Source of the DNA: Azolla caroliniana
Taxonomy: Eukaryota; Plantae; Polypodiophyta
Length of the DNA stretch: 64,000 nucleotides
Direction of reading: 5' to 3'
Assembly: GCA_043228905.1 (NCBI GenBank)
Contig: JBHGNT010000018.1
Span: forward strand, 10,540,001-10,604,000
Notes under the pieces: model-generated
Told to the model about the DNA's origin: nothing
Seen by the model: the letters and a program-made list of their open reading frames with translations, nothing else
The model's database searches: none
Shown here: in pieces, positions 15,526 to 51,979 of the stretch
Numbering within the stretch: position 1 is the first letter of the stretch
Layout: each line of letters begins with the position of its first letter
Translations under genes and position numbers: made by a program

Positions 15526-15603
15526 AGGGGGAGTTTGTTGGGATTACGGTCCCTCCGGATGGGATGTCCGGAGATGAATGACGGCAAGCCCGGAGACCGT
15601 TAC

Positions 15604-15793
15604 GGAGCCGGATGATGAAGAGTACCCGGCTACGGAGCCGGATGATAAAGAGTACCCGGCTACGGAGCCGGATGATGAAGAGTACCCGGCTACGGAGCCG
15701 GATGATGAAGAGTACCCGGCTACGGAGCCGGATGATGAAGACCCCGGCTACGGAGCCGGATGATGAAGACCCCGGCTACGGAGCCGGATGATG
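15604..15793 (+). repeat. U3 tandem repeat in the C3 3' LTR, 6 units
   Basis: 4x30 bp + 2x28 bp units. Confidence 0.95.
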
Positions 15794-25499: not shown

Positions 25500-28306
25500 T
25501 CCAAGGGTTCTAGAGGTTCTTCGGGTAGTTGTGGTGGCTGCTATTGTTGTTGCTCTCCAGCCTGCTCCTCCTTTCCGGCTCCAGTCCCTTTCAGGCTTCC
25601 GCTCCGGCTCATCTGTTCTGGGCTCCTCCTGCTCCTGATGTCCAGCTTGCATTGGCTCTTGCGGTTGGCTACGTTCGAGTGCTCCACTTGAGCTACATTT
25701 GGCTGGCTCCCTCCGGTTTCGGCTGCGTTCGGCGTCTACTCCAAAGATTGCTCTTCGTCACTAATGTTAATTGCCGTCGTTCTTCTACCCACCAATTGTC
25801 GTCTCCGCTCCCGTTCGTATCGCTCGAACTGGAGTTGGGTATCCAGTTGGTCGTCATCCAATTGTCCCACCAGTCAGCCCACCACCACTAGTTGTTCTCC
25901 GGCCAAGGATAGGAAGTCATCCGATAACTCCTCCCTTATGGTCACAACACTTTCCACGTCCAGTTTGTAGAAGTTATTGCCGTCCTTCTCCCGGTTCTCT
26001 GCATCCACTCGCAAAACCTGCAACTCAGCTTCCTGCTTTGCCCATTTGGACCACCACAGTACTGAACTTTCTTCAACTAACCTCTTCGTCTGGTCCCTCC
26101 ATGTTAGTACAATGTCTCGAATACGGCCAAGTCCCATCTTTGACTTATCCTCCGCGGCCTGCTTTTCATCCTTTAATTTCTTTATGAGGCTCACGGTTGC
26201 CTCAGCTTGTCCCTAATACTGCATCAGTTGCGTCTGATAAGTCGTATAAACTTTGTTCAGAGCCATCTTTGCTTGTTCCATCTCCTCATTATGTTGCAGG
26301 GTAAGCTACATTCTGTCCTTCGCCGCTTCTGCCAATATCTTTGCCGCTTCGACTCCGTTGGTCCTTTCTTCCACCAATGCCGCTGCCATCCTATTGACTT
26401 CATTCCAAACTTCCCGCATCTTCTCTTGTTGTCGGTCACCTTCTGTCATCAATACCTTGTGTTCCGCCTCTAGGTGCTTGTGATCCCGGTGCAACCTATC
26501 AAAATCGTGTGTTTTCTATTCTAGCTTTTGATTGACTTGGTGTCGGGCACTGTCCTCACGGTCCTTCTGTTGCCAAGTTCTTCTTTGAGCCACTCGATCT
26601 CAACTTCCGCCAATCGCCGGGGATTGTCCTTTTCTTGCAACAACTTTTCTTTTTCTTCCTTCAATCGGTCATATGCTTGATGACCCTTCCGTAGATTGTC
26701 CTCGGCTTTTCGGAGGTTCTCTGCCATTTTCCGTTGTTCCTCCTCCATCACCTTCTTCAGGTCTCATTCTCTAGCCCTTAAGGCCTCTTGGGCTGCTAGT
26801 TCTTCTCTAAGAGTGGTTTCTGTTCTCGCCGAAAGCCCTTTTTGGATTGGTGCCTGTAGCGACAACTCCTGCTCTTGCTGTGCCTGCTGCCTCGGTGAGG
26901 TAGGCAATTCGATTACCGATTCTTGGACCACCGACATTGTTGCTTCTTGTTGCACATGTAACTCTTTCATCGGTTTTGGTTGAACCAGTTCCACCTTTCC
27001 TTGCCTCCGGTCCCTCGGAACGGGGTGTCGGTGCGTTGTCCTTCATCGGACCCGATTCGTCCCCCTTCTGCTCCGCGTCGCTACGCTTCTAGCGATGTAG
27101 GAGGTTATCGGCGGGGTCTTCCTCCGCCTCCTCCTCGTGGATTCTGATATTGATCTTCGTTGCCAAGGGGTCCGGCTCTTGTTCCTGTCGGCGTAACTTG
27201 ATTTTAAGAGGCCTTACTGGTGGCTCCACCAGTGTCTCTGTCTTTGCTTACCTCTTCCGGCTAGGCGGTTCTTTCCCTTGCTGCGAGGTACTGCCCTCTT
27301 TCCATCCAGGCGTGTGCTTGGCCAAGAGTTGTTGCCGTTTTGAAGGTTTGTTGGGCGTGGTCTCCGTTACTTGAACCCACTTCTTAGTCTTTACCGGCTC
27401 CACTGGGGACGCCTAGAGAGTTAACCATTGAGCCATGGTCGTTCATATTTTCTTGCCATTCTGCACTGATTCTATTGTCGTCCGCAAGCAATCATCGATG
27501 ATTACCGGCCAATCCACTTGCACCCTTGTGTATGTAGCAATGATGAAACTGACTTTGTTCTTTGGCATTGCCGGGGGTCGGGGGTACACGAACCCATACT
27601 CGTGGAGGACATGAGCCACTTCTCTGAACAAGGGGTCCTCACCGCCCTGTGTCCGGTGAGCCTTGCTGGCTAGGGAATACTCACGAAAAAACTTGGTTAG
27701 CGTTTCAGGAGAACGGTTCACGATGGTGTAGATGCCCCCTTCCGGCAATCCGATTAGAGTGCGGATGGCTTCCTCCGTTATGACTTCCGTGTCGATTTTA
27801 TGCACGACTTCTTCTGCTTCATAGTGTGGCGGTGCCTCTACTATCCTCATGAAGCCTCCCAACCTAGGTTTGTTGAACCACTTCTTGGTTGTTTCGGAAA
27901 GTGCCATAGGTTCCATCTCATCGTCTGGTTCTGCGGGGGTGGGTAGGGCCGATGTACTTGTATGTGCTTCTTGCGTCCGTCTGCTCACTTGTATTGTCCT
28001 TTGTGCGCTCAATGCTCTGTGTTCACGAAATGAGGTTTCGTGTTCCCATGCTTGACACCTTTCTCGAGCAACCAATCAGCGATGATTACCGGCCAATCCA
28101 CTTGCACCCTTGTGTATGTAGCAATGATGAAACCGGCTTTGTTCCTTGGCCTTGCTGGGGGTCGGGTGGGGGGGTACACGAACCCATACTCATGGAGGAC
28201 ACGAGCCACTTCTCTGAACAGGGGGTCCTCACCGCCCTGTGTCCGGTGAGCCTTGCTAGGGAGGGAATACTCGCCAAAAAACTTGGTTAGCGTTTCAAGA
28301 GAACGG
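25500..28306 (-). pseudogene. G2 extra 3' ORF remnants (charged, coiled-coil-like), continuing at 35278-35640
   Basis: Series of E/K/R/Q-rich frames between INT and the 3' LTR, in element sense. Confidence 0.6.
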
Positions 28307-29019
28307 TGTCATAGTGCATTTCGTAGACTACGTGAAAAACTCATAAAGTACCGATTTAATAAATATGAATAAATAGTAGAAAATATTAAAATATATATAA
28401 CATGCATAGGGCAAGATTTGAACCTTGCACCTCCATGTTAATAATGTGAAACCTTACCATTACACTAGCATTACATTCATGTTAAAAAATAAATGTCCCA
28501 CATAAAAATAAGGCAAGTTCACATAGGATAGTTAAAAGAAAAAGCTACGCATGCATATCTAGCATGCATGAACACTATAGTCGATAAAAAACGCACAAGA
28601 TAGAAAAAGCATGATCACTTTCGATAAAGCATATAGTCTATCTATAGGAAAAGCATGGAGTCTATAGTTAGAGAAGAAAAATCATGGATTGCTAAGACTC
28701 CCTCATCACTACATAAGGATGGGGAGCACAATGTAAGGTGTGTGAAATATTTGGGAAATTGGATATATTTCCTAAAACACCAATAATAAAATAGAATCGT
28801 GGGATTCACGAAGTTTTATATAATCTATCTCTTTCAATCTAAATTCATATTCTTACATAAATATTGATTACTGTAATACTTGTGGGATTCACAAGATTAG
28901 CCTCAAATTCTTCCTCCTAGTCCAAAACCTCGGTGGTTCCCACCCGACTCACGCAACGATCCGAAGCCGAAAGGCACGACACAAGTGGTGAACCCGACGT
29001 GAAGAGGGGTGGTAAGGAG

Positions 29020-31089
29020 ATGGAGAATCAACAAGAAGCGATGAATATGATGATGATGATGATTAACCGGATGCAAGAAGAGCAACGCACAATGTTGGAG
29101 ATGAAATCGGCAGTAGCGCGGCTTGTGCAAAGAAATGGGGAATTCAACGGAAAGGATGTGTCACGCTATCTATGCGAATACAAGGCCGAGATGATGCGAT
29201 GTGGGATACCGAAAGGATTGCAAGTGACATCCTTCAATCGAGTAGTCACTGATGAGTTACAGGAGAGAATCCACAAAATAGGGCAACAAAACTTGACATG
29301 GGAGTCCTTTGAAGAAGCTTTATGAGAGGCATATGACTACGAGAGATCGAAGGGACGAGCTCGACGCGAGTTTGATGAATGGGTGGCATCGGAGAAGACC
29401 CACCGAACTACAACACAAGCATTCCTAGAGTTCGAGGATCGTTTTGCTCGACTCTCAGAGCGGGAACAACGATTGGTGGGGGAGGATAAAGTCCTAATGT
29501 TCGTAAAATCAATCGATCGAAAAGAAAGGATGGACATTGGGATTGAACTCGAAGACGATGACGGTGCGAATGGTCTTACTGAAGATTGGGCCGAAGTCCA
29601 AAGGGTATGTCGGAGACATGATGATAGGAAGATGAGAATCTTGTCAACGACATAGCCGATGAAGGATGGTCGATTGGAGACAAACGATGGAGCCGATATG
29701 AAGGCCGAAATACAACATGATGGTGCGACGGAAGAGGGTGTAAAACAAGCTACCCTCTTGTCTTGTGAAAGAACGACGGCGAAGGATAAGGCCGATAACC
29801 CAAGTGTAGAAGAAGATTTCAGAATACAAGTGTCTGAAACATCGGGTGAAAAAGGGGTAAGCATAATTGATGCAGTGAAAGAGAGCGAGGACTTGATTGA
29901 GGAGGTCGCCACAAAAGATGACATCGAATCGAAGTTGGCTATGGACGAATCAATGGCGGATGGCCATATCGAGACTTCCCCACCACTGATTCCAGAGACT
30001 CCGGCGGTTGCGTTCGAAAGGCAACGTGAGACCGAAGAGACAGAAGGTGGTGGAGAGAAAACAAAGGTCGAAGCCGATTCATACGATGGAGAGATAGCCG
30101 AGAAGGTGGCTATGGTTGAAATGACAGAGGATGATAATACCGAGGGTTCATGCACACTAATCCTAGAGACTTCGGCGGTTGCGTCCGAGAACCAACGTGA
30201 GACCAAAGAGATGGGAGATGGCGGCAAGGAAGGTAAAGTCGGAAGCCGGTTCGGATGGAAGATGATCCGTCCGAAATTCCGGTCTAAAAGAAAGCTAAAG
30301 CAAGCGGAAGTGGATCCGGACAAAATTCGAGAGTTCGACACGGATGGAAATCATTCCAACTAGAAGTTAATCGAACGAGACCGATCTGGAAAGAAGATTC
30401 GGAAGTCAAACCAGTCAAGACCGGTGAAAACAAAAAAAAGAAAGAAAATCTGGACGAAAACCAATCGGTAGACACAAATCCGGAAGGGGGCTGAATCGGT
30501 AAAAACCGATCAATCGAGTCCGAATCAGCCGAATACGAATCTTATCGGAAGCCGATCCAACCGAAAGCTGATCGGACGAGACCGATCCAGAAAAATGTCA
30601 AGGTTGATGAAGAGGCCAGGAAAAGACACTACCATGGATGACAAGGGCCAAGCGGATTTGAAGGGTATTATTAACGATGAGATCTCAACAAAGAAGAAAG
30701 GCTCTAACGGGAAGAACATAAACACTAATGCGAGATTCTATGACGAGAGAGAACAAAGAATATGGTGGATCGGATGGTGACAATGGTTCGGGTGGAAAGA
30801 ATAGATGTGCTCAAAATGGAGAGACAAAGCTGATATAGCGAGAGAAACGGAGGGTACAACAAGTAACGAAGAATTACGAGGGCCGGTAACCAGAGACCGG
30901 ACAGAGCTGGCAACCAAACTGAACCAGAAACCGGGCGGAGCTGGCAACCAAAAACCGGAGACTGAACGGGGCCGGTTCCCAAAAATGACCGGCGACGAAA
31001 CCAACCATGCAGAGAACGGACGGACGAGACTAACAATCACCGACAACTTCGGCACATACCGGAGGATGTGCAGGTTCGGAGGGGGCGAG
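29020..31089 (+). pseudogene. gag: N1 gag-like ORF with stops, followed by an acidic low-complexity tail
   Basis: FNGKDVSRYL...FEDRFARLS...VLMFVKSID, homologous to the N2 ORF and the G5 gag. Confidence 0.8.
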
Positions 31090-31307
31090 TGTCGTAGTGT
31101 ATTTCGTAGACTACGTGAAAAACTTATAAAGTACCGATTTAATAAATATGAATAAATAGTAGAAAATATTAAAATATATATAACATGCATAGGGCAAGAT
31201 TTAAACCTTGCACCTCCATGTTAATAATGTGAAACCTTACCATTACACTAGCATTACATTCATGTTAAAAAGTAGATGTCTCACATAAAAATAAGGTAAG
31301 TTCACGT

Positions 31308-34300
31308 TGTCGTGCCTTTCGGCTCCGGATCGTTGCGTGAGTCGGGTGGGAACCGCCGAGGTTTTGGACTAGGAGAAAGAAGAATATGAGATGAGGCTAG
31401 TAATGAATAGATTATTAGAAAGAGATATAGAAACTTGTGAATCCCACAAGTATAATTGTTTTAGTTTATCTAAATCGTAGTAATAAATTGAAATAATTTA
31501 GAATAGATTAGAGTAGATTGAGAAAAGAGATCAAACCTTGTGAATCCCACAAGTATTACATTAATCAATATTTATGTAAGAATATGAATTTAGATTGAAA
31601 GAGATAGATTATCTTAAACTTCGTGAATCCCACGAGTATATTTTATTAATTGGTGTTTTAGGAAATATATCCAATTTCCCAAATATTTTTCACACACCTA
31701 TTACATTGTGCTCCCCATCCTTATGTAGTGATGGGAGAGACTAAGCATAGCTACATGCTTTTTTTCTAATATGTTCATGCACACTAAATGTGCATGTGAT
31801 GCTTTTCTAATCCTTGCTTTTATTTGCTAAATATAGTGCTCATGCACGCTAGATGTGCATGAGTCACTTTTTAGTCGCTTGCGTTTTTCTATAAAATATT
31901 CACGCACTCTAAAAATACATGATTTACCTTTTAATAAAGGTAGGCGCAAATAAAGCACTTATAGTTATTAAATCTATTTATAGAACACTAAAGATAAGGT
32001 AGCATAATGGTAAAGTTGAGGTTTGGCTACGTGGAGGTACAGAGTTCGAATCTTGCCCTATGCACGTGATAAATATCTTGATATATTATTTTATTTATTT
32101 ATATGTAATTAAATCGGTTATATTATTTTTACTTTTTCACGTAGTGTACGAAATACACTACGACACTCGCCCCCTCCGAACCCGCACATCCTCCGGTATG
32201 TGCCGAAGTTGCCGATGCTCGTTGTCTCCCCTTCATCCTCCGTTTGTCCCGCTATGTCAACTTTGTCTCTCCATTTTGAGTAGACCCATTCTTTCCACCC
32301 GAACCATTGTCGCCATCCGATCCACCATATTCTTTGTTCTCTCTCGTCATATTCTTGGCCCTTGTCATTCGTGGTAGTGTCTTTTACTGGCCTCTTTCTT
32401 GTCTTCATCAACCTTGACTTTTTTCCGGATCGCTCTCGTCCGATCGACTTTTGGTTTGATCGGCTTCCGATCGGATTCGTATTCGGCCGAATCGGAATCG
32501 GTTGTTCGGTTTCGATTGAGTCGGTCTCCTTCCGGCCCGGTTTCGATCTATCGGTTTCGGTTTCGTCTTTTCTTTCGGGTCGACTTTCGGTCGAATCCTC
32601 TTTTACCCGGTTCGGCTTTCTTTCGGATCGGAATCCCGTCCGGATCACCTTCCATCCTAACTGGCTTCTGACTTTACCTTTCTTGCTGCCACCTCCCGTC
32701 TCTCCGGTCTCACGTTGCTTCTCAGACACAACCGCCGAAGTCTCTAGGATTAGTGGGTAGGAATCCTCGGTATTATCATCCTCCATTGTTTCACCCATAG
32801 CCATATTCTCGGCTATCTCTCCGTCGTATGCATCGACTTCGACCTTTGTTTTCTCTCCGCCACCTTCCGTCTCTTCGGTCTCACGTTGCCTTTCGAACGC
32901 AACCGCCGAAGTCTCTGGAATCAGTGGTGGGGAAGTCTCGATATGGCCATCCGTCGTTGATTCGTCCATAGCCACCTTCAATTCGATGTCATCTTTCATG
33001 GTGACCTCAATCCAGTCCTCCTTGCTCTCTTTCACTACATCAATTATGCTTACCCCTTTTTCACCCGATGTTTCGGACACTTGTATTCTGAAATCTTCTT
33101 CTACACTTGGGTTATCGGCCTTATCCTTCGTCGTTGTTCTTTCGCAAGACAAGAGGGTAGCTTGTTTTACACCCTCTTCCGTCGCACCATCATGTTGTAT
33201 TTCGGCCTTCATATCGGCTCCATTGTTTGTCTTCAATCGACCATCCTTCATCAGCCATGTCGTTGACAAGATTCTCATCTTCCTCTCATCATGTCTCCGG
33301 CATACCCTTTGGACTTCGGCCCAATTTTCGGTAAGACCATTCGTACCGTCATCGTCTTCGAGTTCGATCCCGATGTCCATCCTTTCTTTTCGATCGATCG
33401 ATTTTACGAACATTAGGACTTTATCCTCTCCCACCAACCGTTGTTCCCGCTCCGAGAGTCGAGCAAAACGATGCTCGAACTCTAGGAATGCTTGTGTTGC
33501 ACTTCGGTGGGTCTTCTCCGATGCCACCCATTCGTCGAATTCTCGCCGATCTTGTCCCTTCGATCTCTTGTAATCATATGACTCTCGTAAAGCTTCTTCG
33601 AATGATCCCCATGTCGAGTTTTGTTGCCGTATCTTGTGGATTCTCTCTTGTAGCTCATCCGTGGCCACCCGATTGAAGGATGTCACTTGCAATCCTTCCG
33701 GTATCCCACATCGTATCATCTCCGCCTTGTAGTCACGTAGATAGCGTGACACATCGTTTCCGTTGAATTGTCCGTTTCGTTGTACGAGCCGCTTTACTGC
33801 CCCCGTGATCTCCGACATCACTCGTTGTTCTTGTAGCATCCGCTCGAACATCATCATCATCGTTATGCTCATTGCCTCTTGTTGATTCTCCATCTCCTTG
33901 CCACCCGCCTTCACGTCGGGTTCACCAACTGTGTCGTGCCTTTCGGCTCCGGATCGTTGCGTGAGTCGGGTGGGAACCGCCGAGGTTTTGGACTAGGAGA
34001 AAGAAGAATATGAGATGAGGCTAGTAATGAATAGATTATTAGAAAGAGATATAGAAACTTGTGAATCCCACAAGTATAATTGTTTTAGTTTATCTAAATC
34101 GTAGTAATAAATTGAAATAATTTAGAATAGATTAGAGTAGATTGAGAAAAGAGATCAAACCTTGTGAATCCCACAAGTATTACATTAATCAATATTTATG
34201 TAAGAATATGAATTTAGATTGAAAGAGATAGATTATCTTAAACTTCGTGAATCCCACGAGTATATTTTATTAATTGGTGTTTTAGGAAATATATCCAATT

Positions 34301-34789
34301 TCCCAAATATTTTTCACACACCTATTACATTGTGCTCCCCATCCTTATGTAGTGATGGGAGAGACTAAGCATAGCTACATGCTTTTTTTCTAATATGTTC
34401 ATGCACACTAAATGTGCATGTGATGCTTTTCTAATCCTTGCTTTTATTTGCTAAATATAGTGCTCATGCACGCTAGATGTGCATGAGTCACTTTTTAGTC
34501 GCTTGCGTTTTTCTATAAAATATTCACGCACTCTAAAAATACATGATTTACCTTTTAATAAAGGTAGGCGCAAATAAAGCACTTATAGTTATTAAATCTA
34601 TTTATAGAACACTAAAGATAAGGTAGCATAATGGTAAAGTTGAGGTTTGGCTACGTGGAGGTACAGAGTTCGAATCTTGCCCTATGCACGTGATAAATAT
34701 CTTGATATATTATTTTATTTATTTATATGTAATTAAATCGGTTATATTATTTTTACTTTTTCACGTAGTGTACGAAATACACTACGACA
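31308..34789 (-). mobile_element. Young non-autonomous gag-only LTR element N2
   Basis: 858-bp LTRs at 31308-32165 and 33932-34789 with no difference seen. PBS at 33910-33927. Perfect 4-bp TSD acgt. Confidence 0.95.
32118..33914 (-). CDS. gag: Intact Gag-like protein (~590 aa) with an acidic/charged C-terminal half; no pol domains
   Basis: Single open frame filling the whole internal region. N-terminus homologous to G5 gag (FDGKDPTSYL...FEERFARLS...VLLFVKAVD). Confidence 0.8.
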   Translation of the reverse strand: MKAGGKEMENQQEAMSITMMMMFERMLQEQRVMSEITGAVKRLVQRNGQFNGNDVSRYLRDYKAEMIRCGIPEGLQVTSFNRVATDELQERIHKIRQQNSTWGSFEEALRESYDYKRSKGQDRREFDEWVASEKTHRSATQAFLEFEHRFARLSEREQRLVGEDKVLMFVKSIDRKERMDIGIELEDDDGTNGLTENWAEVQRVCRRHDERKMRILSTTWLMKDGRLKTNNGADMKAEIQHDGATEEGVKQATLLSCERTTTKDKADNPSVEEDFRIQVSETSGEKGVSIIDVVKESKEDWIEVTMKDDIELKVAMDESTTDGHIETSPPLIPETSAVAFERQRETEETEGGGEKTKVEVDAYDGEIAENMAMGETMEDDNTEDSYPLILETSAVVSEKQRETGETGGGSKKGKVRSQLGWKVIRTGFRSERKPNRVKEDSTESRPERKDETETDRSKPGRKETDSIETEQPIPIRPNTNPIGSRSNQKSIGRERSGKKSRLMKTRKRPVKDTTTNDKGQEYDEREQRIWWIGWRQWFGWKEWVYSKWRDKVDIAGQTEDEGETTSIGNFGTYRRMCGFGGGECRSVFRTLREKVKII

Positions 34790-35688
34790 ACGTAGGATAG
34801 TTAAAAGAAAAACGCATGCTAAAAGAAAAAGCTACGCATGCATATCTAGCGTGCATGAACGCTATAGTCGATAAAAAACGCACAAGATAGAAAAAGCATG
34901 ATCACTTTCGATAAAGCATATAGTCTATCTATAGGAAAAGCATGGAGTCTATAGTTAGAGAAGAAAAATCATGGATTGCTAAGACTCCCTCATCACTACA
35001 TAAGGATGGGGAGCACAATGTAAGGTGTGTGTGAAATATTTGGGAAATTGGATATATTTCCTAAAACACCAATAATAAAATAGAATCGTGGGATTCAAGA
35101 AGTTTTATATAATCTATCTCTTTCAATCTAAATTCATATTCTTACATAAATATTGATTAATGTAATACTTGTGGGATTCACAAGATTAGCCTCAAATTCT
35201 TCCTCCTCCTAGTCCAAAACCTCGGTGGTTCCCACCCGACTCACGCAACAATCCGGAGCCGAAAGGCACGACAACGCTTCTCGATGGAGTAGATGCCCCC
35301 TTCCGGCAATCCGATTAGAGCGCGGATGACTTCCTCCGTTATGACTTCTGTGTCGATTTTATGCACGACTTCTTCTGCTTCGTCGTGCAACGATGCCTCT
35401 ACTATCCTCATGAAGCCTCCCAACCCATGTTGGTTGAACCACTTCTTGCTTGTTTCGGAAAGTGCCATAGGTTCCATCTCGTCGTCTGGTTCTGCGGGGG
35501 TGGGTAGGGCCGATGTGCTTGTATGTGCTTCTTGCGTCCGTCTTCTCACTTGTATTGTCCTTTGTGCACTCAATGCTCTGTGTTCGCGAAATGAGGTTTC
35601 GTGTTCCCATGCTTGACACCTTTCTCGATTCCCACGCATGCACGTCGTGTACTAGAATAGCAACTGTATGATACATGGTGCGCTTTAA

Positions 35689-38600: not shown

Positions 38601-38902
38601 CGGTTCCTCTTCGGTGCCCAAATTTACTTCTTGTAATTGGGACGCCTTTACTCGTTGGGATACCGCCATTTCCCATTCCAAGGCTTCCTATGCTTGCCAC
38701 AGTTCCCAGATTGCATCCTTATCTGGTTCCTCACCGGCCTCTTCCGTCTACACAATGTATGGAGATACCGCTTCTACCACGTCCACTTCGAATAGAGGGA
38801 CTATCCTCGGGTTCTCTTCAAGGTAGCGATCCACCTCCTCGTCGGCCAGTCCCGTCGGCATGTTCACGCTTTTGGCATATAGTGGGGTTACGTCTTTGCC
38901 GG
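35689..38902 (-). pseudogene. pol: G2 RT-RNase H-integrase
   Basis: [58 protein letters not shown]. Confidence 0.9.
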
Positions 38903-40128
38903 TATCGCGAAAATACGACGAGGATACGTGAACTTGAGGCAGGACCTCGGGGCCTCCGACAGGAAGATATCATATTCGTATGATTATATTAACCAATTAA
39001 TACAAAATGAGAAAGATTCACAAATTTCATTAACAGATAGAAAAGAAAAATTACAATCAATCCCAGGATTGGGATTACAAAAGTTTTATCTTAAGGAGAT
39101 TACTAGAATAATATATTAGAGGAAATAAGAGATTATGATTCTTGAGTGATATGGCTTTGATAAGGAATTTTGGATTTTGAGAGATATGGCTTCCGTAGGG
39201 AAATTTTAGGGTTTATGGCTTCCGTAAGGAAATTAGGGTTTTTGAGTGTTATGGCTTCCGTAGGGAAGATTAGGGTTTTTGAGTGTTATGGCTTCCGTAG
39301 AGAATTTATGGTTTATGAGAGTTATGGCTTCCCTAAGATAAGGGAGCTGAGAAGGAAAAGAAAATTAATGGAGAGCGAATGAGTATAAAAAAAAGATGAA
39401 ATTTTATATGGAGTTCCCAGTTGATCATATGCATGTCCACTTTTTGTTGCATGGCCTCTACTTTTAGTTGCTTAGCTTTTTCTTTTAGTTGCATCTATTT
39501 TTAGTTGCATGCGACCGTCCACATGACCTTTACTTTAGTTTTCTTCACTTCACTTTAATTAGCCACATGATCCTTTTATCCGTTCGGTTTGTGTCCAGCC
39601 TCGTTTGGTCGCCGGTTCCGTTCGGTCGCCGATTGTCGTTGCCTCATCGGCTCCGCTGCCGGTTCAGTTTGCTTACCGGCCGGTTTCCGATTTTGCTTAC
39701 TAGCCTGGTTCCGGTTTGCTTACCGAACGGTTTCGGTTTGCTTCCCGACCGGTTTCCGATTTTGCTTCCCGATCGGTTTCGCTTCCCGGCTGGTTTCCGG
39801 TTTTGCTTACCAGGCCTTCCGGATTGCTTACTGGCCGGTTTCCAGTTTTGCTTACCGACCAGTTTCCGGTTTTTGGGAACTTGACCACCATCATCCATCA
39901 AGACAAAGTGGCCAAAGTGCTCTTAGCACAAATGAAAATGAGAATCTCAAGGTGCTTATATAGCCAGGGCCTTAAGTTTCCTATCTATGTGGGATAAATA
40001 ATAGTTCTCTTTTCCCTATCTTCTCAAGCATCCATCTTCTAGAACATGCCATTAAGCTAATATAAAGTACTTATTTTATTATTATTATTATTATTATTAT
40101 TACATAGTGTGAGAAGATTAACACGACA
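38903..40128 (-). mobile_element. Solo LTR S (~1.2 kb) of the TGTCG lineage inserted in G2 pol
   Basis: Ends t(a)tcgcg...acacgaca; left end resembles the G5 LTR end. Flanks ccgg/ttgg. Contains atggcttccgtag and ccggttt repeats. Confidence 0.65.
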
Positions 40129-40132
40129 TTGG

Positions 40133-40830
40133 GGCCTACTTGCAGTTGCGTGGGTACTCTTACTTTCGTTTTCCCTCTTCGAAACGTAATATTGTTCTTC
40201 TGCCAATTCTATTTGATATGGGCAGTCCTCAGCCACGGTCGTCCCAGTAGCAGTGGGTATGCCCCTTGAGCGTTCAACTGGAGGACTATCACAGAAATTC
40301 GGAAAGCATGGCCTTTGATCGTCACCTCCAAGTCTTGGATCAAGCCGGTCGGTCGAACTGAGCTAGTGTCCACCATCCGGAGCTAGAATGAGCATGGTTC
40401 CCACTCCTGAATTCCCAAGGTGTAGCATGTCCGGAGGCTTATCACGTTTACTCTTGTTCCTCCATCGACTATCGTACCCGGTAGCTCCCGTCCTTTAATA
40501 ATCACAATGATTGCCGGACTGCTGATGTCCACCACTACTGGTCCTTCCTCTAGATTTGAAAAGAATGTCGGAGCTGGTGCAGGACTTAATAGAGCCAACG
40601 CCGATTTCAACCCGTCAGTGAACTGAGGCACTAGTTGTACTAACCAGCCCAGTGGTAACGTGATTTGGCATTCCTGAAGTGCTTGCCACGTGGGGTTCTC
40701 CGGTTCTGCCTTTTCAGTGAGTTCCTCCACTGCATTCGTTTGCTCTTTCAGTTCAGTGACGTTGCGTTCGTTGGCCTTTTCAATCCATTCGGTGGTCTGT
40801 TTTCGTATGGCCTACTGTGCTTCCCATTCC
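40133..40830 (-). pseudogene. pol: G2 protease region
   Basis: TIVDGGTRVNVIS and YPLLLGRPWL. Confidence 0.8.
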
Positions 40831-41525
40831 GGTTTACCGTGGTGAGAATTTACCGTAGTATTCTATACACGTGGATAAGTGTGAGGGTTAAATGAGAGTG
40901 TAAAGAAGGGGAGGACTTCTTTTAATCCTCGGGATTGAGACAACCCATTAGGCCAAGTGTGAACTTGCCCGGGGGCCTTGGGTATCGTTATAAATAAGAG
41001 GCCTAGCTACCCTCATTTCATCATCTTTTGACTACGTCGAGACTCTATTCTTGTGGTGGGTCAATTCTTGTAGCGAGTGCGCCAACACCAGGTACGACTC
41101 GACGCCACTGCGGTGGTATGGGATGCCGATCGAGGCTCGAGTCCGTCTCGATCCCTTCGCTCGGGGGTGGTCGGGTGGATCGGCACCCTTCTTTCTCTCT
41201 ATCCTTTCTATCTAGATCTATGTTTTATCCTTATTTTATGCTTACATTAGTTCATGTCTCTAATAGTTGGTCTCAGAGCCTATGTTCTAATGTTTCTTTT
41301 GTTGTGTTTTGTCTTGTTGATTGATGGTGATCAATCGATGTGCGGTCGGCCTTGATCCAGACAACAATCAACAAAGGAACTTTGGTAACTCTTTCCTTCT
41401 TCTTTTTTTCTATTTTTGCTTCTCCCATCTAATCATGTGTATAGTCTATATGTAATTGTTTTCATTAATTTAATGATGTTGTAGTGGTAATTAATTGGTT
41501 GTATAAAATGTTTACATATGTGTAT

Positions 41526-41770
41526 GAGGTTAATACCTCATTTGACATATATTGAATATGTGATTAGTGTCGTATGCAAACGAGGTTAATACCTCAATTG
41601 CGTATTAGGCTCACATACATATGTTACGTATGCATACGAGGTCAATACCTCGATTTCATTGTAAATGATATGCGTTTGGTCTCGTATGCGTAAGAGGTCA
41701 ATACCTCAATTGCGTATTACGATGAACCCTTATTTTTTGGATGTTTCGTTTGTGTAGAGGTATATACCTC
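41526..41770. repeat. Five spaced copies of the palindromic core gaggtNNatacctc (period 56,56,56,63) in the G4 5' UTR
   Basis: Cores start at 41526, 41582, 41638, 41694 and 41757. Confidence 0.85.
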
Positions 41771-42947
41771 GATTACGTATCTCGATTATATCATTCATGG
41801 CTATTTGATGTAACGATTTGTTTAATGTATGCATATGTGGTCACGTGTATACGTATTTGATCGTACATACGTGTATATTTGATATTACATGATTTCTATC
41901 GAATGTTGTCCTTTTCGGGGAAAGGACCTTGGTGGCCGTCCTCACTTTTTGTGAGAATGGCGTTGTCACCATCCCTTTTTTCAACAATTTTTTATTGTTG
42001 ACATTCCCGTTGGTGACTTCGATTTTATTATGTAAAAAAATGTCTATAGCCACAATGATGTTGAGAACGTAGGGCTTGACCCACTTCGTGTGAGGTCGCT
42101 CCTATGACACATATCCAACATCCCTCCCTCGTTACATGGATACGATGCCACCATGAGATCATTCTTACGAGAGGCATTCGTAATGACGTAACCATGTGAT
42201 GGGCCACATGGGCCTACTACGAAAAGAGGGCTCATTTGCCTTGACCATTAGGTTGCACTTTCGCGTATGCCATCGTAATTACGAGACTTGAGGTTAGGTA
42301 ACATCCCAACATATTTTGTAGTAAACAAGGGGGAAGTAAGGACTCTTGACATATATGTTTCTTTTAAAAAAACATATATGGGCAAATGCCTCGCATATCT
42401 CTTATACGCATGAAACATCAAACATTCAAGAAGAGCAACCTACTTGGTTGGCTCAAGTGTTTAATGCATTTGTTCTCGAGGTCTCGAGTTCAAATATGAT
42501 CAAGACCATACAACATCGTTGTTACATATGATTATAACACATGTTTAGACTTGAGGTCTCTAAGTGCACTTCGGGTTCTTTGTAATAGGACTTAAAAGAG
42601 CCCAAACCACATATGTGGGCACAAAAACATAGTTTATTGTTAACATTTCTTTCGTGTATAAACTACTCATGACGCAAACATACATGGTTGAGCCTTGGGG
42701 AGCCGCCATGAAAAAATCGATATAGAGATCAGGGAAAGACATTAATTTGTCACCCCCATGACTTTTAAAACACCTTTGTGTTACCATAGTAACCTGAGCT
42801 TGAACCTCATCTCATACGTCTAGAGGGGTATTGACGTGAGATCATGATATCGATTAATGTTTGTCCATGATATGTTTACATCACGACATGATGTTATCAC
42901 TATTTGTCTGACCTTATCCTATTTCTTTGCTAGAAACAATCATTTAA

Positions 42948-44939
42948 TGGCTCAAAATAACGACCCAATGTCATTCGCTCAAGCGGAAGGAACTCAAGGA
43001 AATCCTCCTAGACAAATGTCCATTGAGATGTATTTTTCACAAATAACCCAATACCTTAGTTTCACCACTCAACAGATGACCGAACTTCGGCAATCTCAAA
43101 GTCCTCTCGAGGCACGTGTCATTAGTTTACAACGTGAGACTAATAGACCTAATGAGCGATAGGTTGAACCATCGTTTGTCATTAAGCCATTTACGAGAGA
43201 AAAAAAGGAAAGAACCGAAGAAGCAATCTGCACGTGACTGGGCCGATGGGAGTCTCATTTTGAGTTCTATCCCATGCCAGATAGTACGAAGATTGCATAT
43301 GTTGACCAAGAACTAGGGGGTAAGGTAGCCGCTTGGTGGCGTGGGCTTTGAACTTTGGGGAAATTGCCTGATACCTGGAAAGATTTTGTCACAATTTTTA
43401 AGGGCCAATTTCTACAATCTCCCTCTCGAACCGAGGCAACTCAAGCTTTAATGAACCTCTCTAGCAGGAAATTTTCTTCGCTAGAAGACTATGTCCACCA
43501 TGCTAGAACCCAAATCCAAAAATCGGGTCTAGAAAGGGACAATTGGTTAATAGCTTGTTTTGTCAATGGCATCCCCAATTCGGACTATCACTGGATAGCG
43601 CACGATAAGGATCCAAAATACTTTGAAGAGGCCGTTGAAATAGTTCTTCGCTATCAACGCACTTTGAAGAAGAACCACAACAAACCCAACGAAGCACCCG
43701 AGACTAAGCTGTCGCAATTCGCTGGGAAATGCAAGACACCCAACGAATTCATGGATCGCGATTGTAAGCGACAATTACATCCTTTTTGCGTATTTTGCAA
43801 AAAGAAGGGTCATACAAAAGAGCAATGTCGAAAGCTCCTACGGAAAGAGCATGACAACAAAGCTAAAGCTGCAAACCATAAAGGTCAGATTCCTAATGTC
43901 CTTCAGGTCTATACACATCATTTAAGTAATTGTCAATGTTCTTTCCCTCACTATGTATTGGGTCCCAATGATTTACTACGTGCAAACGGGTATATCAATG
44001 GATCTTCCATACAATTTTTGTTTGATTCGGGAAGCTCACACAACTTTGTGAATGATCGTTTGGTTCAGATATGGGGAATCCAACCTACCGTAAGTGATCA
44101 CACCTATAGGGTGCACTTGGCTGATGGAAGAGTACAATACATCAACGGGGCGATTCATTCATTAGGAATTTCTATTGATACTTATATAGAGGAAGTAGAC
44201 TTCCATGTAATGAATCTTTGTACCACTTATGTAATACTAGGTTATCCCTGGTTCTATAATAAAAGCTCTTCTTTATCTATTGATTGGGTTCATCATTCAA
44301 TAACATTTGTACTGAACGATTGTACTCATTTTATTCAATGTGTAAAAAAACAATCCCTCCCGATTGTTGCCTCTCCATCAATATCTGAGTTGTCTTGTTC
44401 TACTCTTTTTTATTGTGTACTTTATCCGGACATTCATGTTTACAATATCAATAATGTCTCGGTTCAATTAACATATTTTGAACAACAACTTGATGAAATC
44501 TTAAATGATTTTCGTAATGTTTTTCCGAGTGAACTACCATATGGGTTACCTCCTAAACGTAATATAGACCATCGTATAGATATTGTACCTGGCATTGCAC
44601 CAATGAGTATACCTCCTTATCACTTAAGTCGATCCGAAGAGGATGAGGTATCTAAGCAACTCAAGGACAATTTATGAATGGGTTATATACGTTATAGTAA
44701 ATCTCCATGGGGTGCACCAATTCTCTTGGTTAAAAAGAAAGAGGGCACATGGGGTATGTGTATTAATTACCGACGCTTGAATAAAGTGACGATCAAGAAT
44801 TCGTATCCATTGCCCCAAGCTGATGATCTAATTGACCGTCTCCAAGGAGCTCGGTATTTTATGAAAGTTGATCTCCATACTGGCTACCATCAAATTCTTA
44901 TAAGTGAGGACGATGTTCCTAAAACGGCATTTCATACGT
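42948..44939 (+). pseudogene. gag-pol: G4 gag-PR-RT N-terminal part
   Basis: [48 protein letters not shown]. Confidence 0.9.
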
Positions 44940-47900
44940 TGTCGTGTTATTCTGCACGCGTAGGAGAAACCAAGGCGGGACCGCGGGGGCCCTGAACCAG
45001 GGAATAGCCAAGCAGAGGGAGGAGCACTACGAAACCACGGCCGAGCCCCGCACATAGATTCACAAAGAATTCACAAACAAGGTCGAACAACGAATAAGGC
45101 AAATGTGTATATGTATATATGTATATATGACCAAAATTACAGCAGGCTAGCCGGTAAGTGCCAACTCGCTGACACTAACTCACACAGCACACAACAACAA
45201 GAGATGGAGCCTCTATCGGAAGCGCTCGGGCTTTCTGCGAAAATAGAGGCAGCCTCCCAACCTACAGAGAATGACGAAAAACAGAGGAGAAGAGCTTGGT
45301 TTCAGTCCGACAGCACTTCGTCCTCGAAAACACGATCCCCACTCAGCCCCTTTTCCTCTCCTTTTATAGCACAAGGAGAGAGAGTCGTTACAAATTGTTA
45401 CATCACTTTTATTCTCTGTCCTTTCGGACAGAGATCCTCTTTGATTCCCTAACTAACGAATTCGTGCTTCCTAGGATAATTACATCGCCGACCTGTACTT
45501 AACTATGTAAATACATCAAAACATGTACCCGTGTGTAAGGTCCGGTTCACGCACACTATCCACTGATTCCTCCTAGGGACGGTTTTCTCCATGACATCCG
45601 CCCCCACCTAACCGCGCATCCTCCGGTATGCGCCAGAATAGACTTCTGCCGAAGAAGACCGGCCCACGATTATCTTTCGCTCTCCGGTTCGCCACCTACT
45701 CCGAACCGGTCATCGTCGTCATCCATGCCCTCTGGGTCCGGTTCGTCCCCGTGCCGCTTCTTGAAGGCCTTGATCCTCTTCCCGACCACTGGCACAACTA
45801 TTCTCGTTCCGTCGAGCTCCGCGAGATGGTAGGTGCCGTTGTCATTGGTGCTTGTCACCGCGTAAGGCCCGAACCACCTCCTCACAAACTTCCGCATTGC
45901 CTTGTGCTGGTTGTCAAGGTTGTTATTGTAGACCAGAACCCAGTCTCCTTCCTCGATTTCCTTTGGTCGTAGTTGGTGAGTCCGATCGAATCGCCCCTTG
46001 TTCTTTGTCCTTGCTGCATGCAGCTTCTTCGTTGCTTGTTCTACGTCCTCCAGTCTTCGCTCGAGTTGTTGGATTCGTGCCGCTAATAGCTCCTCCCAAC
46101 TCATCTCATCTCTCCAGTCCACCACGGCCCATGAGGAGATCGTTCGCTCCATCGGCATGATCGGCTTCTACCCATACATCAGCTCCGCCGGCATGAACCC
46201 GGTTACCGAACTGTGCGTAGTTCGGTCTGCCCACAATGCGTAGGGTAGGAGCCGTGGCCAATTCCCGACTTGGCCTCCACATGCCCATACCAACGCCATT
46301 ATGATTGGCCCATGTCCGCGCTCCACCTTCCCGTTTGCCTCCGGATTGTACGTCGTGGTGACCGAGAGTTTAACCCCTAACCATTCAAACAGTTCTTCGG
46401 CCTCTTGTGCATCCAGTTCTCCACGGTCTGCTACGATCTTCCCTACACACCCGTACCGACATACCACCTCCTCGATTAGTAACCGGCACACGGCCGTGAT
46501 CTTCTTGTTTGGTAATGCTCGGCCCTCCACCTGGTTCGTCAGATCCTCTCGCGCTAGCACCAGGTATCACATTTGCCTTACCCCCATCGGCATCGTCACC
46601 AGATCCACCATCCACTTGAAGTGGACGGTCAGCGAGTAAGTCGGATGTAGCTCATCTCGATGTCAGACTATGGAATGCATCTGACAGCTTTCACAAGTCG
46701 TTACGAACCAATGCACGTCCCGATATAGTCCCGGCCACCAGTACTTGTCCTTCAACTTCTCGAACGTGTCCCATGTCCCCCGGTGTCCGGCCCAAGCAAT
46801 CTCGTGGTACGCCATCAACAATGCTTCCTGTTCCTCCTTCCTCACTACCACTCGAAGCAGGACGTCGTCTCGCTTCTTCGGTGGCTTCCATATTCTCTCG
46901 TCCCGTAGGAAAAATCGGTACGCTTTCTTCCGGATCTGGTAAGCCTCTTCCTTTGTCCATGCCGTGTCCGGCGCCATCATTCTCAGGAACCCACCGATCT
47001 GGAGCCACTCCCCCTCGTACTCACTCTCGTCAAACTCGTTAAGCGCCAGGGTGCTCCCCCTTCTCGTCGTCACGTAAGTTGTCTCGAAGAAGTCCACGCT
47101 GACTTCCTCATCCTCTGAAACCATGCCGCTTTCGTTTTCAAACCTTGCTCTTGAAAGCATGTCAGCCATGGCGTTGTCTTTCCCGAATACGTGTCGTATC
47201 TTCGGATTCAGGGACTTAATGTACGTTATCCACCTGAGCATTGCCAGGTCTAGCGTCGCGCATCCGAAAACCATACCGAGGATCGGTAAACAATCCGTCT
47301 CTATTATTACCTCTGTCCCGATCAGGTAGTCTTTGTCGGCCTTGACCGCCGAAACAATACCCCAGAGTTCGCATTTAACATGGGCGTATCCTCGTTGTCG
47401 CGCGCTAAGTACTTTCACACCAAACCGGATGGGGAACCTCGCGTCGTTCTTATCCTCCTGGTTGATCACCCATCCGATCCTGGTCGGACTTGTGTCTATG
47501 GTTACATAAATTGGAATGTTTTTATCGTAGACTACTTTCCGGAGTGCCGGTGCCGCGGCAAGCGCTTCTTTCATTTTCCGGACCAACTCCACATGCTCCC
47601 CGCTCCACTCAAACTTGCGCCCTTTCTTCAACAACTCGTAGAGTGGCTCTGCGATATGGGTGTAATGTGGGATCCAAATGTGGTAGAGCACGCAAGCTCC
47701 CAAGAACCTCCGGACTTCTGTAACCGACCTGCAATCTTCCTTCATCGTGGAGATGGCTTCCACCTTAGCCGGTGACGGTTTCGGACCATAAGGCCCGCAC
47801 AAGTGTCCGATGACCATGATTTCCGACTGTCTGAAAGCCAACTTCTCCCTAGAGAAGGTGAGCCGCGTGCCTTCGAGCTTCCGTAGCACCTTCTCGCAAT

Positions 47901-50900
47901 CTCCGATGTGGTCTGAGACGAATCTCCGACACCCATCCGGTCCGACCATTTCGTCCTTATCCTCCACCAGACATCCCTTGATCGGAATGTCATCCAAAAA
48001 TGGCATGGTGATGTCCGGGATGCAGTCCCTTAGCACCTTATTCATCGCATTCACCATGTGCGCTACCGAGTTTGTCCCTCCTTGCAGAAGGGTACACATC
48101 CGCACTAGGCCGAGAGGAGTCCGCATCCTCGTAATATCCCTGCTTTCTACAACTACTTGGAATTGGTCGTACCCCGAGTACAGATCTCCGACCGAGTAAA
48201 TTGACCTTCCAGCGAAGGCCTCCACGAACTCGTCAATGGTCGGCCCGATCCTTGCGTTCCGAATGGTCACCTTGTTGACCGGCTACAGGTCCTGAATAAA
48301 GCGCAACGTGTCGTTCTTCTTAGGCACGATAAACCACCGATTCGAGTATGGGGTATTCGAAGGTTCGAGGATGCCCATCTCCACCTTCTGCTTCAACAGC
48401 TCCATCAGCTTCGGGATGTGAGCTCTGGGTAGTGGAATCAGTTTGAGATTCCATGGCACATGCGGTACCGTAAAGATAACCATCGACTCAACGACCGTCG
48501 GGTCCACACACCCGATCTCTTCCGGTGAGAATGCGAAGACCTTCCCATGCCTCCCGAGCATTCCCCGAAACCGCTCCTCCTCCACCGGCAGTAGAAAGCC
48601 AACCCCACCAACCTTGAGCTCCTGTAGCGTTATGTCGGTGAACCGGTGTCCTATGCCGGCCGGATCCCGTAGACTTGGGTCCGACACGACCAACCTGTTG
48701 CCCTCCCACAAGGGTGCCGCGATTGGCCTCACCTTCCGGTCCATAGTCTTGTGCTTCGTATGCACATGGGCCGTCCAATCCAACTCGACCCTCTCCCGGA
48801 AGTCGGCGATGACTTCGTACATCTTTTCTCAATTAACCGGAATCGTCTGGTCTTCGCTGAGGCCTTCTTTGAACAACTTCTTTAATTCCCCCAAGGTGTC
48901 ATCGAGAGAGACCGCCTCCACAGCTCCACCAATCTCATCGTCAGGGCCTAGGACTCCGCACGCCCTGAGACGTTCCTCTACCCACTTCTTCTCCCGGCCG
49001 CTAATGCCGGTTATCGTACAACCTCCGTTGTTGGAGAACCAAAATTTCCTATCTATAGTACAGGGCTTCCTTCCTATGGTACACGTGTGGGGTGTCTTTG
49101 GGGAGTCCGGACTATCGCGGCCCCACGCCTTGATAGCCCTCTCTAAAAATCCCCTCAGCTTTCGCCGCCGCGGATCTTGCAGTTGCACTCATGGTTTGGT
49201 CGCACCGTCAGAAATTAGACGGAGTGTCGCCCATCTTAGCTCTTCACGCATGTGTATGCCGAACCGTTATCCAGCACTTTTGTCTCCATACGTGTTGCCG
49301 TAATGTACGGTTCTCCAAGTATCACCGGATGCGAGGATGTTTCCTGCACGAAGAAGTGTTGGTCAATCTCGACATCACCAATTTTCACTCGTACATTCGG
49401 GCAGGCCCCATCCCATGTAACTCCTCCGTGGCGCGCGTCACCGCTTGTATTTTCCACCCGTGCTTGGTGTTGATCGGCCACTTGCCCTTCTTGTAGAAGT
49501 CCATAGACATTAGGTTAATCTCCGAACCGTGGTCTACCAATGCCACCATCGGCTCCTGAACGTCCCCGATCCTAACCGAGGTCTCCGTAGTGGCTCTTGC
49601 CCAATGCAGCTTTGAATAGTGGCTTTCCGCCAAATCGTCTTCCAGGGCCATGTCTTCTAGGTGCGTCGTTCGCACCTCAACCGGCTTCTCTGGCTCCGGC
49701 TCCGGCTCCGTCGAAAGCCTTTTTCGTTTCATTAGGTCCACGATGGAGTCATGAAATTCTTTCTTGGCGATCCCAAGCACTTCCCTCAGCGACAACTCCA
49801 CCTTGTTGTCGAGGATTCGTTCCTCAAGGACCTTCCGCAGGTCCGTCGTTCTTTCTATCTCGATGCTCAACCGATAACCGGCTTTCTTTGCTTTATCCGG
49901 TGTGCCGGTAGCACCGGCGTCATTTTGCTTCAGCCCGAACCGGGTCTCCTACCGCTACGAGGGTTCGGCCCCTCCGGCCTTTCCCGAACGCTTGTCTTCT
50001 ACCAGAACCTCGTGGTTCTAGCAGGTGGCTTCCACAAAGCCGGTCTTTTCTTCGACTGGATCGCTCCACCCGGTGTCCTCCCAGACCCTTTTTTCTGCAC
50101 AGTCTGCTTCCTCCCTTCTCAACCGCATGCCGGCGAGGCCTTCTAGCACCACAGGCCAGACCCCGGAGTCTTTCGTCTTCCGGCCTTCGTCACTCCCGAC
50201 CCGGATTCCTGCCGACACCGAGTAGTGGATGGTTTCTGCGTGGCGCGCAACTGCTTCTTCCATCAGCCTCTTCATTCCTCCCCGTCCGATATTCAGCTCC
50301 AAGGCTCTCCGGGTCTCGCTAGCATGTACCCTCACGTTCCATAGGTACACCACATTAGCCCTTATTGCTTCTGCGAAGTCCACGCAGTCCTTCCGAACGT
50401 GACCGACCGCGTCACACGACAAGCACCGATGCCCACTCGAAGGCCTTCAGTCGCGAGGTTGCTCGCCGTTGTCCCTCCTTGCTTGTGCAATCTAGAGGTC
50501 TCGTACCATCTGCGTCAGTTCTTCTAAAGCCGCTCCGCCAGATAGGCCCTTGACCACGTCGGACGAGCCTCAAGCCAATCCCGGGTTTCCTCCTTGCGCG
50601 TCGGCGAGGGTCCCTCGAGGTTTCTTGCCGCAACCGCTCCTGCCCCCAACGAGCCCTTGTCGACCCACTCGCGCTGTTTGTCGAAACGGCCCCAAACCCC
50701 TTTTACCATGGCCCAGTCGGCCGTCAGCCCATCGTCCGTCTCTAGCAGGAAACCCACTTGCTCCCGATCCCGCACGTCCACAGCTTTGACGAATAAAAGG
50801 ACACGGCTCGTGTCCAGTACGTTCCTGTCCAGTGCCGAAAGACGTGCGAAGCGTTCCTCAAACTCCCGGAGGAGCGCCGATGCATTCCTCCCCTTTTCTA

Positions 50901-51975
50901 GAGTCTCCATCCAATCCATAAAGTCCCGCTTCGATAACCGATGCGTGTCATCAAGCCCGTACCGCTCGAAGAGCCGTGCTTCGAATCCCCCCCAGGTCCG
51001 GCATCCAGCCTGCACCTTGAGCACTTCCGCGTGGATGCCCGATGTCGCTACCTGCAGGAACCCAAACAGACGCCTCTCCTCCAGGATGTCCCTCATCACC
51101 ATTTCAGCCCGGTAGGCCACCAAATAACTCGTGGGGTCCTTCCCATCGAACCGGCCTATTGCACCGACAATTGCTTCAATGGCCCTGTCAAGGGCGCCCG
51201 TGCCCTCGCGAGCACTTACTATCCGATCGACTGTTGCCGCCATGGCTTCAGCGAGCTCTGATCCCCTCATTTTCGATTCCTTTGCCGCCTTGTTTCACGT
51301 CAGGTTCACCAAATAATGTCGTGTTATTCTGCACGCTCAAGAGAAACCAAGGTGGGATCGCGAGTGCCCTGAACCGAGAAATAACCGAACAGAGGGAGGA
51401 GCACTACGAAACCACGGCCGAGCCGCGCACACAGATTCACAGAGATTTCACAAACAAGGTCGAGCAATGAATAAGGCAAATGTGTATATGTATATATGTA
51501 TATATGACCAAAATTACAGCCGGCTAGCCGGTAAGTGCCAACTTGCTGACACTAACTCACACAACGCACACGACAACAAGAGATGGAGCCTCTATTGGAA
51601 GCACTCGGGCTTTCCGCGAAAACAGAGGCAGCCTCCCAACCTACAGAGAACGACGAAAAACAGAGAAGAAGATCTTGGTTTCAGTCCGACAGCACTTCGT
51701 CCTCGAAAACGCGATCCCCACTCAGCCCCTTTTCCTCTCGTTTTATAGCACAAGGAGAGAGAGTCGTTACAGACTATTACATCACTTTTATTCTCTGTCC
51801 TTTCGAACAGAGATCCTCTTCGATTCCCTACCTAACGAATTTGTGCTTCCTAGGATAATTACATCGCCGACCTGTACTTAACTATGTAAATACATCAAAA
51901 CATGTGCCTGTGTGTAAGGGTCGGTTCACGCACACTATACACTGCTTTCTCCTAGGGACGGTTTTCTCCATGACA
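44940..51975 (-). mobile_element. Full-length degenerate gypsy G5 (fungal/Ylt1-like RT), tRNA-Trp primed
   Basis: LTRs at 44940-45596 and 51317-51975. PBS tggtgaacctgacgtgaa at 51294-51311. PPT aggtgggggcgga. 4-bp TSD acgt/acgc. Confidence 0.92.
45670..51270 (-). pseudogene. gag-pol: G5 gag-PR-RT-RH-INT with stops and frameshifts
   Basis: CxxCDAVGHVRKDC, LVDHGSEINL, DLYSGYDQF, QGGTNSVAH, FLDDIPIKG, GHRG...YWW...CESCQ, ADRGE, YNPEANGKVERGH, WFGPY. Confidence 0.9.
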
Positions 51976-51979
51976 ACGC

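What the first reader, a model, noticed from the sequence alone, without database searches (positions are those of the whole stretch)
28303..51979. Gypsy lineage that makes 4-bp TSDs centred on CpG (NCGN target choice)
Seen: every insertion of the TGTCG...CGACA lineage with both flanks in the window has a 4-bp duplication with a central CG. These are N1 acgg/acgc (28303/35274), N2 acgt/acgt (31304/34790), G5 acgt/acgc (44936/51976) and solo LTR S ccgg/ttgg (38899/40129, plausibly C>T decay). For N1, N2 and G5 the 4-bp length is fixed by rebuilding the empty site from the duplicated G2 copy, the sister LTR, and the G4 RT reading frame. All other resolved TSDs here are 5 bp, the usual plant value. 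Inference: this integrase has a sequence-directed, possibly methyl-CpG-directed, target preference. That would steer it into methylated TE piles even though no chromodomain is visible.
Basis: partly seen in the sequence, partly recalled or inferred. Interest (0 to 1): 0.85.

Follow-up and report, generated by a model that had tools for sequence, protein, structure and literature searches.

The report
Phygy-type retrotransposons inserting at CG sites
Four related retrotransposon insertions here each duplicated four bases of host DNA, three visibly centred on CG and the fourth likely so before decay; this habit is real but was already published for the moss Phygy lineage, to which they likely belong, and whether DNA methylation plays any part is untested.

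Summary
N1, N2, G5 and solo LTR S belong to one Gypsy lineage. All four target-site duplications are 4 bp; for S the length was fixed here by homologue spacing. Three show the central CG directly; in S it is inferred (CCGG/TTGG). The three other resolved TSDs in the window are 5 bp. The preference is not chance: 19 of 20 host junctions of related elements in metagenome contigs have CG at TSD positions 2-3 (background 5.5%), and the majority flank letters read ACGT or ACGG in 4 of 4 sequencing runs. But it is already in print: Neumann et al. 2019 list Phygy as 4-bp TSD (100%), NCGN, tRNA-Trp primer, no extra domain (186 elements). G5 fits these traits, though no named Phygy sequence was available for a tree. 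Added here: the motif is better written VCGB (18 of 19), the same edge rule as 4-bp retroviruses, and the integrase is one residue shorter, with a fixed Glu, at the loop that contacts target DNA in retroviruses. Best mechanism: sequence and shape readout by the integrase. The methyl-CpG idea is neither supported nor excluded.

The parts
28307..35273 (+). N1: non-autonomous element (gag-like region, no pol); 5' LTR 28307-28981, 3' LTR 31090-35273 split by N2
   Evidence: gag hit 29110-29631, 34% to G5 gag, E 2e-27
28303..28306 (+). N1 left TSD ACGG
35274..35277 (+). N1 right TSD ACGC
28986..29002 (+). N1 primer binding site, 4 nt behind the LTR (tRNA-Trp type by recall)
31308..34789 (-). N2: non-autonomous element, 858-bp identical LTRs (33932-34789 and 31308-32165), one 624-codon gag-like frame
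   Evidence: 33.5% to G5 gag, E 2e-31
31304..31307 (+). N2 left TSD ACGT
34790..34793 (+). N2 right TSD ACGT
33911..33927 (-). N2 primer binding site
38903..40128 (-). S: solo LTR of the same lineage, inside the protease-RT linker of a host Gypsy
38899..38902 (+). S left TSD CCGG
40129..40132 (+). S right TSD TTGG (two C>T changes inferred)
44940..51975 (-). G5: full-length decayed element, 7036 bp; 5' LTR 51317-51975, 3' LTR 44940-45596 (92.9%); gag, DUF4100, PR, RT, RH, INT with stops and frame changes
45673..46660 (-). G5 integrase core and C-terminal domain: DRGELD motif, GPY motif, short acidic tail, no chromodomain seen
51295..51311 (-). G5 primer binding site, 5 nt behind the LTR
44936..44939 (+). 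G5 left TSD ACGT
51976..51979 (+). G5 right TSD ACGC

Best explanation
These four insertions come from one non-chromovirus Gypsy lineage, likely Phygy, that leaves 4-bp duplications centred on CG, and its integrase likely picks the site by reading DNA sequence and shape itself, without needing methylation. Shown: 4-bp length, central CG, shared LTR ends and primer site, gag-only N1/N2 related to G5. Inferred: G5-type elements supply the integrase to N1/N2 in trans. The intasome cuts the two strands 4 bp apart, which would force a sharp kink at the middle base step; that favours a pyrimidine-purine step and disfavours T first and A last, as in 4-bp retroviruses. The near-absolute choice of CG over TA or CA would need base contacts as well; a candidate is the loop after the second catalytic Asp, one residue shorter here and with a fixed Glu. 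Split of confidence: Phygy-type lineage about 0.85; CG preference real about 0.99; methylation not required about 0.65.
For: TSDs in the window. 19 of 20 outside junctions with CG at -3/-2, p 2e-23 against 0.055; 19 of 22 if the two dropped rows are kept; no other offset exceeds 4 of 20. Majority flank ACGT in 4 of 4 runs (62, 56, 25, 71 contigs) and ACG+G in 4 of 4 (30, 23, 5, 19 contigs), overall agreement only 0.37-0.48, so the flanks differ. 18 of 19 CG sites are VCGB against 48% expected, p 2e-5; Serrao 2015 passages: 4-bp TSD viruses disfavour T at 0 and A at +3, select a central YR step and bend DNA sharply. Phygy row: 4 bp 100%, NCGN, tRNA-Trp 81%, no extra domain. Faye 2008 abstract: ZAM integrase binds and nicks at CGCGCg in vitro. 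DxGE in 68 of 68 parsed relatives, of 120; one-residue gap against the two other Gypsy integrases in the window. CG is chosen even in flanks with under 1% CG (L035).
Against: No named Phygy sequence among 240 listed relatives or the cluster members listed, so no tree. G5 (7.0 kb) is below the published Phygy range of 7.7-10.0 kb. Outside junctions are one-sided, so they show the CG but not the length. Most come from one series of assemblies; contigs are not loci, and run X1 may be the window's own sample. One search gives majority letters, not fractions. In one search only 2 of 4 LTR 3' ends had CG (the two misses look like decayed primer-site junctions). The regex for DxGE required D-x-G, and the gap placement rests on four sequences. 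Nothing here separates CG from methyl-CG.
Confidence: 0.68

Rival explanations
1. The integrase needs or strongly prefers methylated CpG, so insertions are steered into silenced repeat DNA without a chromodomain.
For: CpG sites in this window were methylated in the past: C>T differences per site 0.077 (42 of 542) at CG, 0.072 (20 of 278) at CHG, 0.023 (44 of 1945) at CHH. All four insertions sit in other retroelements. A review passage says C methylation created strong target preferences for an avian retrovirus in vitro. Phygy is among lineages enriched at liverwort centromeres.
Against: No methyl-reader domain in Pfam scans of G5 or 7 relatives. The window is all repeats, so nesting carries no information. 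Decay of TSD CpGs follows any insertion. ZAM shows CG-rich site choice by a purified integrase. For retroviruses local preference is largely independent of chromatin.
Confidence: 0.17
2. Pure shape readout: the 4-bp stagger only needs a bendable central step and CG is merely the commonest outcome.
For: Central YR selection is general and strongest for short TSDs; the edge rule matches; best solved-structure hit is foamy virus integrase, a 4-bp enzyme.
Against: G at -2 in 20 of 20 and no TA or CA centre among 20 (one TG, a possible CpG decay product) in AT-rich DNA; 100% NCGN in 186 Phygy. Retroviral preferences are described as weak.
Confidence: 0.12
3. Chance or selective reading of four junctions.
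For: Only N2 is a perfect duplication; S needs two changes, and CTGG would be an equally short ancestor.
Against: and the published Phygy figure.
Confidence: 0.01
4. The lineage is TatI or Selgy, the other plant Gypsy clades with 4-bp TSDs, or an unnamed sister clade of Phygy.
For: TatI has 4-bp TSDs and a tRNA-Trp primer; Selgy has 4-bp TSDs. No tree was possible.
Against: No second (archaeal-type) RNase H in G5 or relatives; Selgy primes on tRNA-Ala and averages 5.0 kb; NCGN is reported for Phygy alone.
Confidence: 0.12

Closest known systems
Phygy (non-chromovirus Ty3/Gypsy, REXdb; Neumann et al. 2019, PMC6317226)
   Same: 4-bp TSD, NCGN, no chromodomain, no aRH, polyprotein filling the internal part, primer site of the tRNA-Trp type (tRNA identity recalled).
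   Different: G5 is 7.0 kb against 7.7-10.0 kb; gag-only partners N1/N2 are not in the passages I read; motif resolved here to VCGB; host probably another non-seed plant (named relatives are from Riccia and Adiantum).
4-bp TSD retroviral integrases (prototype foamy virus, MLV; Serrao et al. 2015, PMC4422553)
   Same: 4-bp stagger, central YR step, T disfavoured first and A last.
   Different: Their preference is weak and not confined to CG; they carry a small neutral residue where this lineage has a gap plus Glu.
Drosophila ZAM (Faye et al. 2008, PMC2527525)
   Same: LTR retrotransposon with strong CG-rich site choice ascribed to the integrase itself.
   Different: Target is CGCGCg, a longer site; different lineage and host.
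TatI and Selgy (REXdb)
   Same: 4-bp TSDs; TatI also primes on tRNA-Trp.
   Different: TatI has aRH; Selgy primes on tRNA-Ala; neither is reported with NCGN.

Membership tests
Ty3/Gypsy LTR retrotransposon | LTRs, PBS, PPT and order gag-PR-RT-RH-INT | tested here: met
   G5
Phygy | RT/RH/INT phylogeny inside the Physcomitrella Phygy clade (the formal criterion) | not testable with these tools
   No Physcomitrium-named or Phygy-labelled row. G5 is 21-26% identical to the other Gypsy RT/RH pieces of the window and 72% to L013. Filed as Phygy-type, membership probable.
Phygy | 4-bp TSD with NCGN | tested here: met
Phygy | No chromodomain | tested here: met
   No chromodomain hit in G5 tail or 7 relatives, none in the 120 precomputed rows; 37-90 residues follow the GPY motif in 61 of 63 parsed relatives. 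Caveat: the two pieces of the G4 tail, meant as positive control, also gave no hit.
Phygy | No archaeal-type RNase H | tested here: met
   (one sub-threshold RVT_3 hit, E 0.048, lies on the ordinary RH of P0200)
Phygy | tRNA-Trp primer binding site (81% of members) | tested here: inconclusive
   One conserved PBS in N1, N2, G5 (3 matches, 0 in 100 shuffles). That it is Trp is recalled; a search for the tRNA found 0 genes in 119 loci.
Phygy | Size 7656-9968 bp (descriptive; the paper calls size of little weight for classification) | tested here: not met
   G5 is 7036 bp; for the weight of size
TatI | aRH domain (100% of members) | tested here: not met
Chromoviruses (Tcn1, Galadriel, Tekay) | C-terminal chromodomain; Met primer or self-priming | tested here: not met

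The most novel reading that the evidence does not exclude
The integrase of this lineage reads 5-methyl-CpG directly at the kinked centre of its 4-bp target, through a shortened, Glu-bearing loop, and so finds silenced repeat DNA with no chromodomain: a retrotransposon that targets a DNA methylation mark itself.
Probability: 0.12. Interest if true: 0.75.

Novelty: new member of a known kind. Interest (0 to 1): 0.22.

Why it matters
The target rule itself is published, so the finding mostly adds a host and a family. What remains open is how it works: the search for NCGN with retrotransposon found only the 2019 survey as a relevant paper (3 listed), and that survey offers no mechanism in the passages read. 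This is the one plant LTR lineage reported with a sequence-specific target, and intact pol frames of relatives exist (L013), so a methylated-versus-unmethylated integration test is feasible. If methylation mattered, it would be a new way for a transposon to hide in silenced DNA.

Tried and rejected
No genome is held for the window, so no genome-wide two-sided logo. Laying runs on the whole N2 LTR showed a high-copy family but the junction rows were cut. The LTR-end plus PBS pattern found 0 viral contigs. Searching LTR 3' ends in the loci gave only 4 non-PBS rows, 2 with CG. Cluster look-ups gave no organism names. The ESM Atlas gave generic gag clusters only. A single-sequence fold of a relative's integrase was unusable (pLDDT 35.7) and was not searched. 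Solved-structure alignments began after the DxG motif, so the residue match to foamy virus Ala188 was not shown. DUF4100 is in 0 papers of the library; its link to Physcomitrella is recalled. The tRNA check failed. Vendrell-Mir 2020 passages did not tie RLG2/RLG3 to Phygy. Earlier findings: none. A 5-bp TSD was rejected at all four sites.

Full report
Setting. The window is a pile of nested Copia and Gypsy elements. No genome is held. The named relatives of G5 are from the liverworts Riccia and the fern Adiantum (mostly 43-63% over the aligned part), the best unnamed ones 63-79%, so the host is likely a non-seed plant.

Check of the four sites. N2 has identical 858-bp LTRs and ACGT on both sides; of 3, 4, 5 or 6 nt removed, only 4 restores register with the uninterrupted sister LTR of N1, which reads ACAT there. 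N1 has ACGG/ACGC; only 4 restores register with a duplicated copy of the host stretch, which reads ACGG. G5 has ACGT/ACGC inside a host RT gene; 1 or 4 keeps the frame and 5 does not. S has CCGG/TTGG. Its central CG is inferred from two C>T changes; CTGG would be an equally short ancestor. The three other resolved TSDs are 5 bp and two LTR pairs are unresolved.

One lineage. N1, N2 and G5 share an LTR end plus primer-site motif (3 matches, 0 in 100 shuffles). N1 and N2 carry only a gag-like frame, 33-34% identical to G5 gag; they are inferred to move in trans. S matches LTRs of loci found with the same motif, its left end lying next to the primer site in L042, so it is a minus-strand solo LTR of the lineage. 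G5 encodes gag, DUF4100, PR, RT, RH and INT with stops and frame changes, and ends in a GPY motif and a short acidic tail.

Is the CG preference more than chance? First test: contigs of four runs (four organism labels, three studies; X1 may be the window's own sample) were laid on the N2 LTR end. Loose ends at the LTR boundary had majority letters ending ACGT in 4 of 4 runs (62, 56, 25, 71 contigs) and ACG before a matching G in 4 of 4 (30, 23, 5, 19), while overall agreement was 0.37-0.48 (24 of 92 loose-end rows shown, majority letters only). Second test: the motif fetched 122 metagenome loci. Homology breaks at TGTC gave 61 rows outside the window; I set aside by eye 32 that were the primer-site junction and 7 that followed the polypurine tract, leaving 22, and dropped 2 whose start was not LTR-like. 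Of 20, 19 have CG at -3/-2 and one has TG (background 0.055, p 2e-23; 19 of 22 with the dropped rows, p 1e-21). The filter did not use the four junction letters. A smaller search of 3' ends gave 2 of 4. These junctions are one-sided and mostly from one series of assemblies.

A finer motif. Among the 19 CG sites, T is first in 1 and A last in 0; 18 of 19 are VCGB against 48% of all NCGN in these loci (p 2e-5). The six TSD copies of N1, N2 and G5 also fit. Serrao et al. 2015 (PMC4422553; abstract and passages) report for 4-bp TSD retroviruses that T and A are disfavoured at positions 0 and +3, that the central step is pyrimidine-purine and that the DNA is sharply bent.

What is known. Neumann et al. 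2019 (PMC6317226; passages, section 9, supplementary file 3) state that Phygy elements have an insertion preference to the NCGN motif, and tabulate 186 elements: 4 bp (100%), NCGN, 8628 bp on average, tRNA-Trp 81%, no extra domain. Jedlicka et al. 2019 (PMC6911290; passages) found GC-rich centres in 4-bp plant TSDs and Phygy often nested in Tcn1. Phygy is also annotated in a liverwort and enriched at its centromeres (PMC12885004; passages). G5 fits TSD, absence of chromodomain and absence of aRH; it is about 0.6 kb below the published size range; the Trp identity of the primer site is recalled and my check failed; the phylogenetic criterion could not be tested. I file it as Phygy-type, membership probable.

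Mechanism. Shown: length and sequence of the target. Inferred: a 4-bp stagger needs a central kink, which explains the edge rule and a YR centre. The exclusion of TA and CA centres (G at -2 in 20 of 20) suggests base contacts as well, as proposed for ZAM integrase, which binds CGCGCg directly (PMC2527525; abstract). A candidate lies just after the second catalytic Asp: DxGE in 68 of 68 parsed relatives (of 120; the parse required D-x-G), one residue shorter than the two other Gypsy integrases of the window, at the place where retroviruses carry a small neutral residue that contacts target bases. The exact residue match was not shown.

Methylation. Repeats in the window show decay at CG (42 of 542) and CHG (20 of 278) above CHH (44 of 1945), so they were methylated, but any inserted element becomes so. 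A review passage (PMC11054761) records that C methylation created strong targets for an avian retrovirus in vitro, so the idea has precedent. No methyl-reader domain was found. The question stays open.

Verdict. Real and well supported, but a published trait of a known lineage; interest 0.22. A search for NCGN with retrotransposon listed 3 papers, one relevant; the library lacks most subscription journals. No earlier scan findings were returned.

Noticed in passing
window 28982-28985, 33928-33931, 51312-51316; loci L001-L122: The gap between LTR end and primer site is 4-5 nt in the window and 4 nt in 75 of 124 matches (5 nt in 26, 3 in 12, 2 in 11; pattern allowed 2-5). By recall 1-2 nt is usual; it may mean a longer overhang for the integrase to trim.
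   Followed up: no
window 31308-34789: N2 is very young (LTRs identical) and sits in reverse inside the LTR of its relative N1 (internal parts about 89% alike). The sister LTR has ACAT where the hit copy kept ACGT. The family is abundant: 5529 contigs of run X1 laid on 1151 bases.
   Followed up: partly
L013 1-12351; L069: A pol-bearing unit and a gag-only unit lie in tandem and share an LTR; a real tandem structure or an assembly collapse. L013 has an open 1152-codon pol frame.
   Followed up: partly
window 27484-28067 and 28068-35628: A tandem duplication of about 590 bp in the host element G2, older than N1 (91-94% alike).
   Followed up: partly
window 10613-16283: Copia element with an open 1476-codon frame, TSD ATTAC, and LTRs that differ in the copy number of a 30-bp repeat (9 against 7).
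   Followed up: no
window 40837-54839: Host element G4 has a 5' LTR that lacks its start, so its TSD is unresolved.
   Followed up: no
L040 (minus strand, near 59): An insertion whose flank resembles the 3' internal end of the same lineage: a likely self-insertion.
   Followed up: no
window 45800-45930 (minus); P0183-P0186, P0212: A conserved basic stretch just before the GPY motif of the integrase C-terminal domain, a second candidate for target-DNA contact.
   Followed up: no
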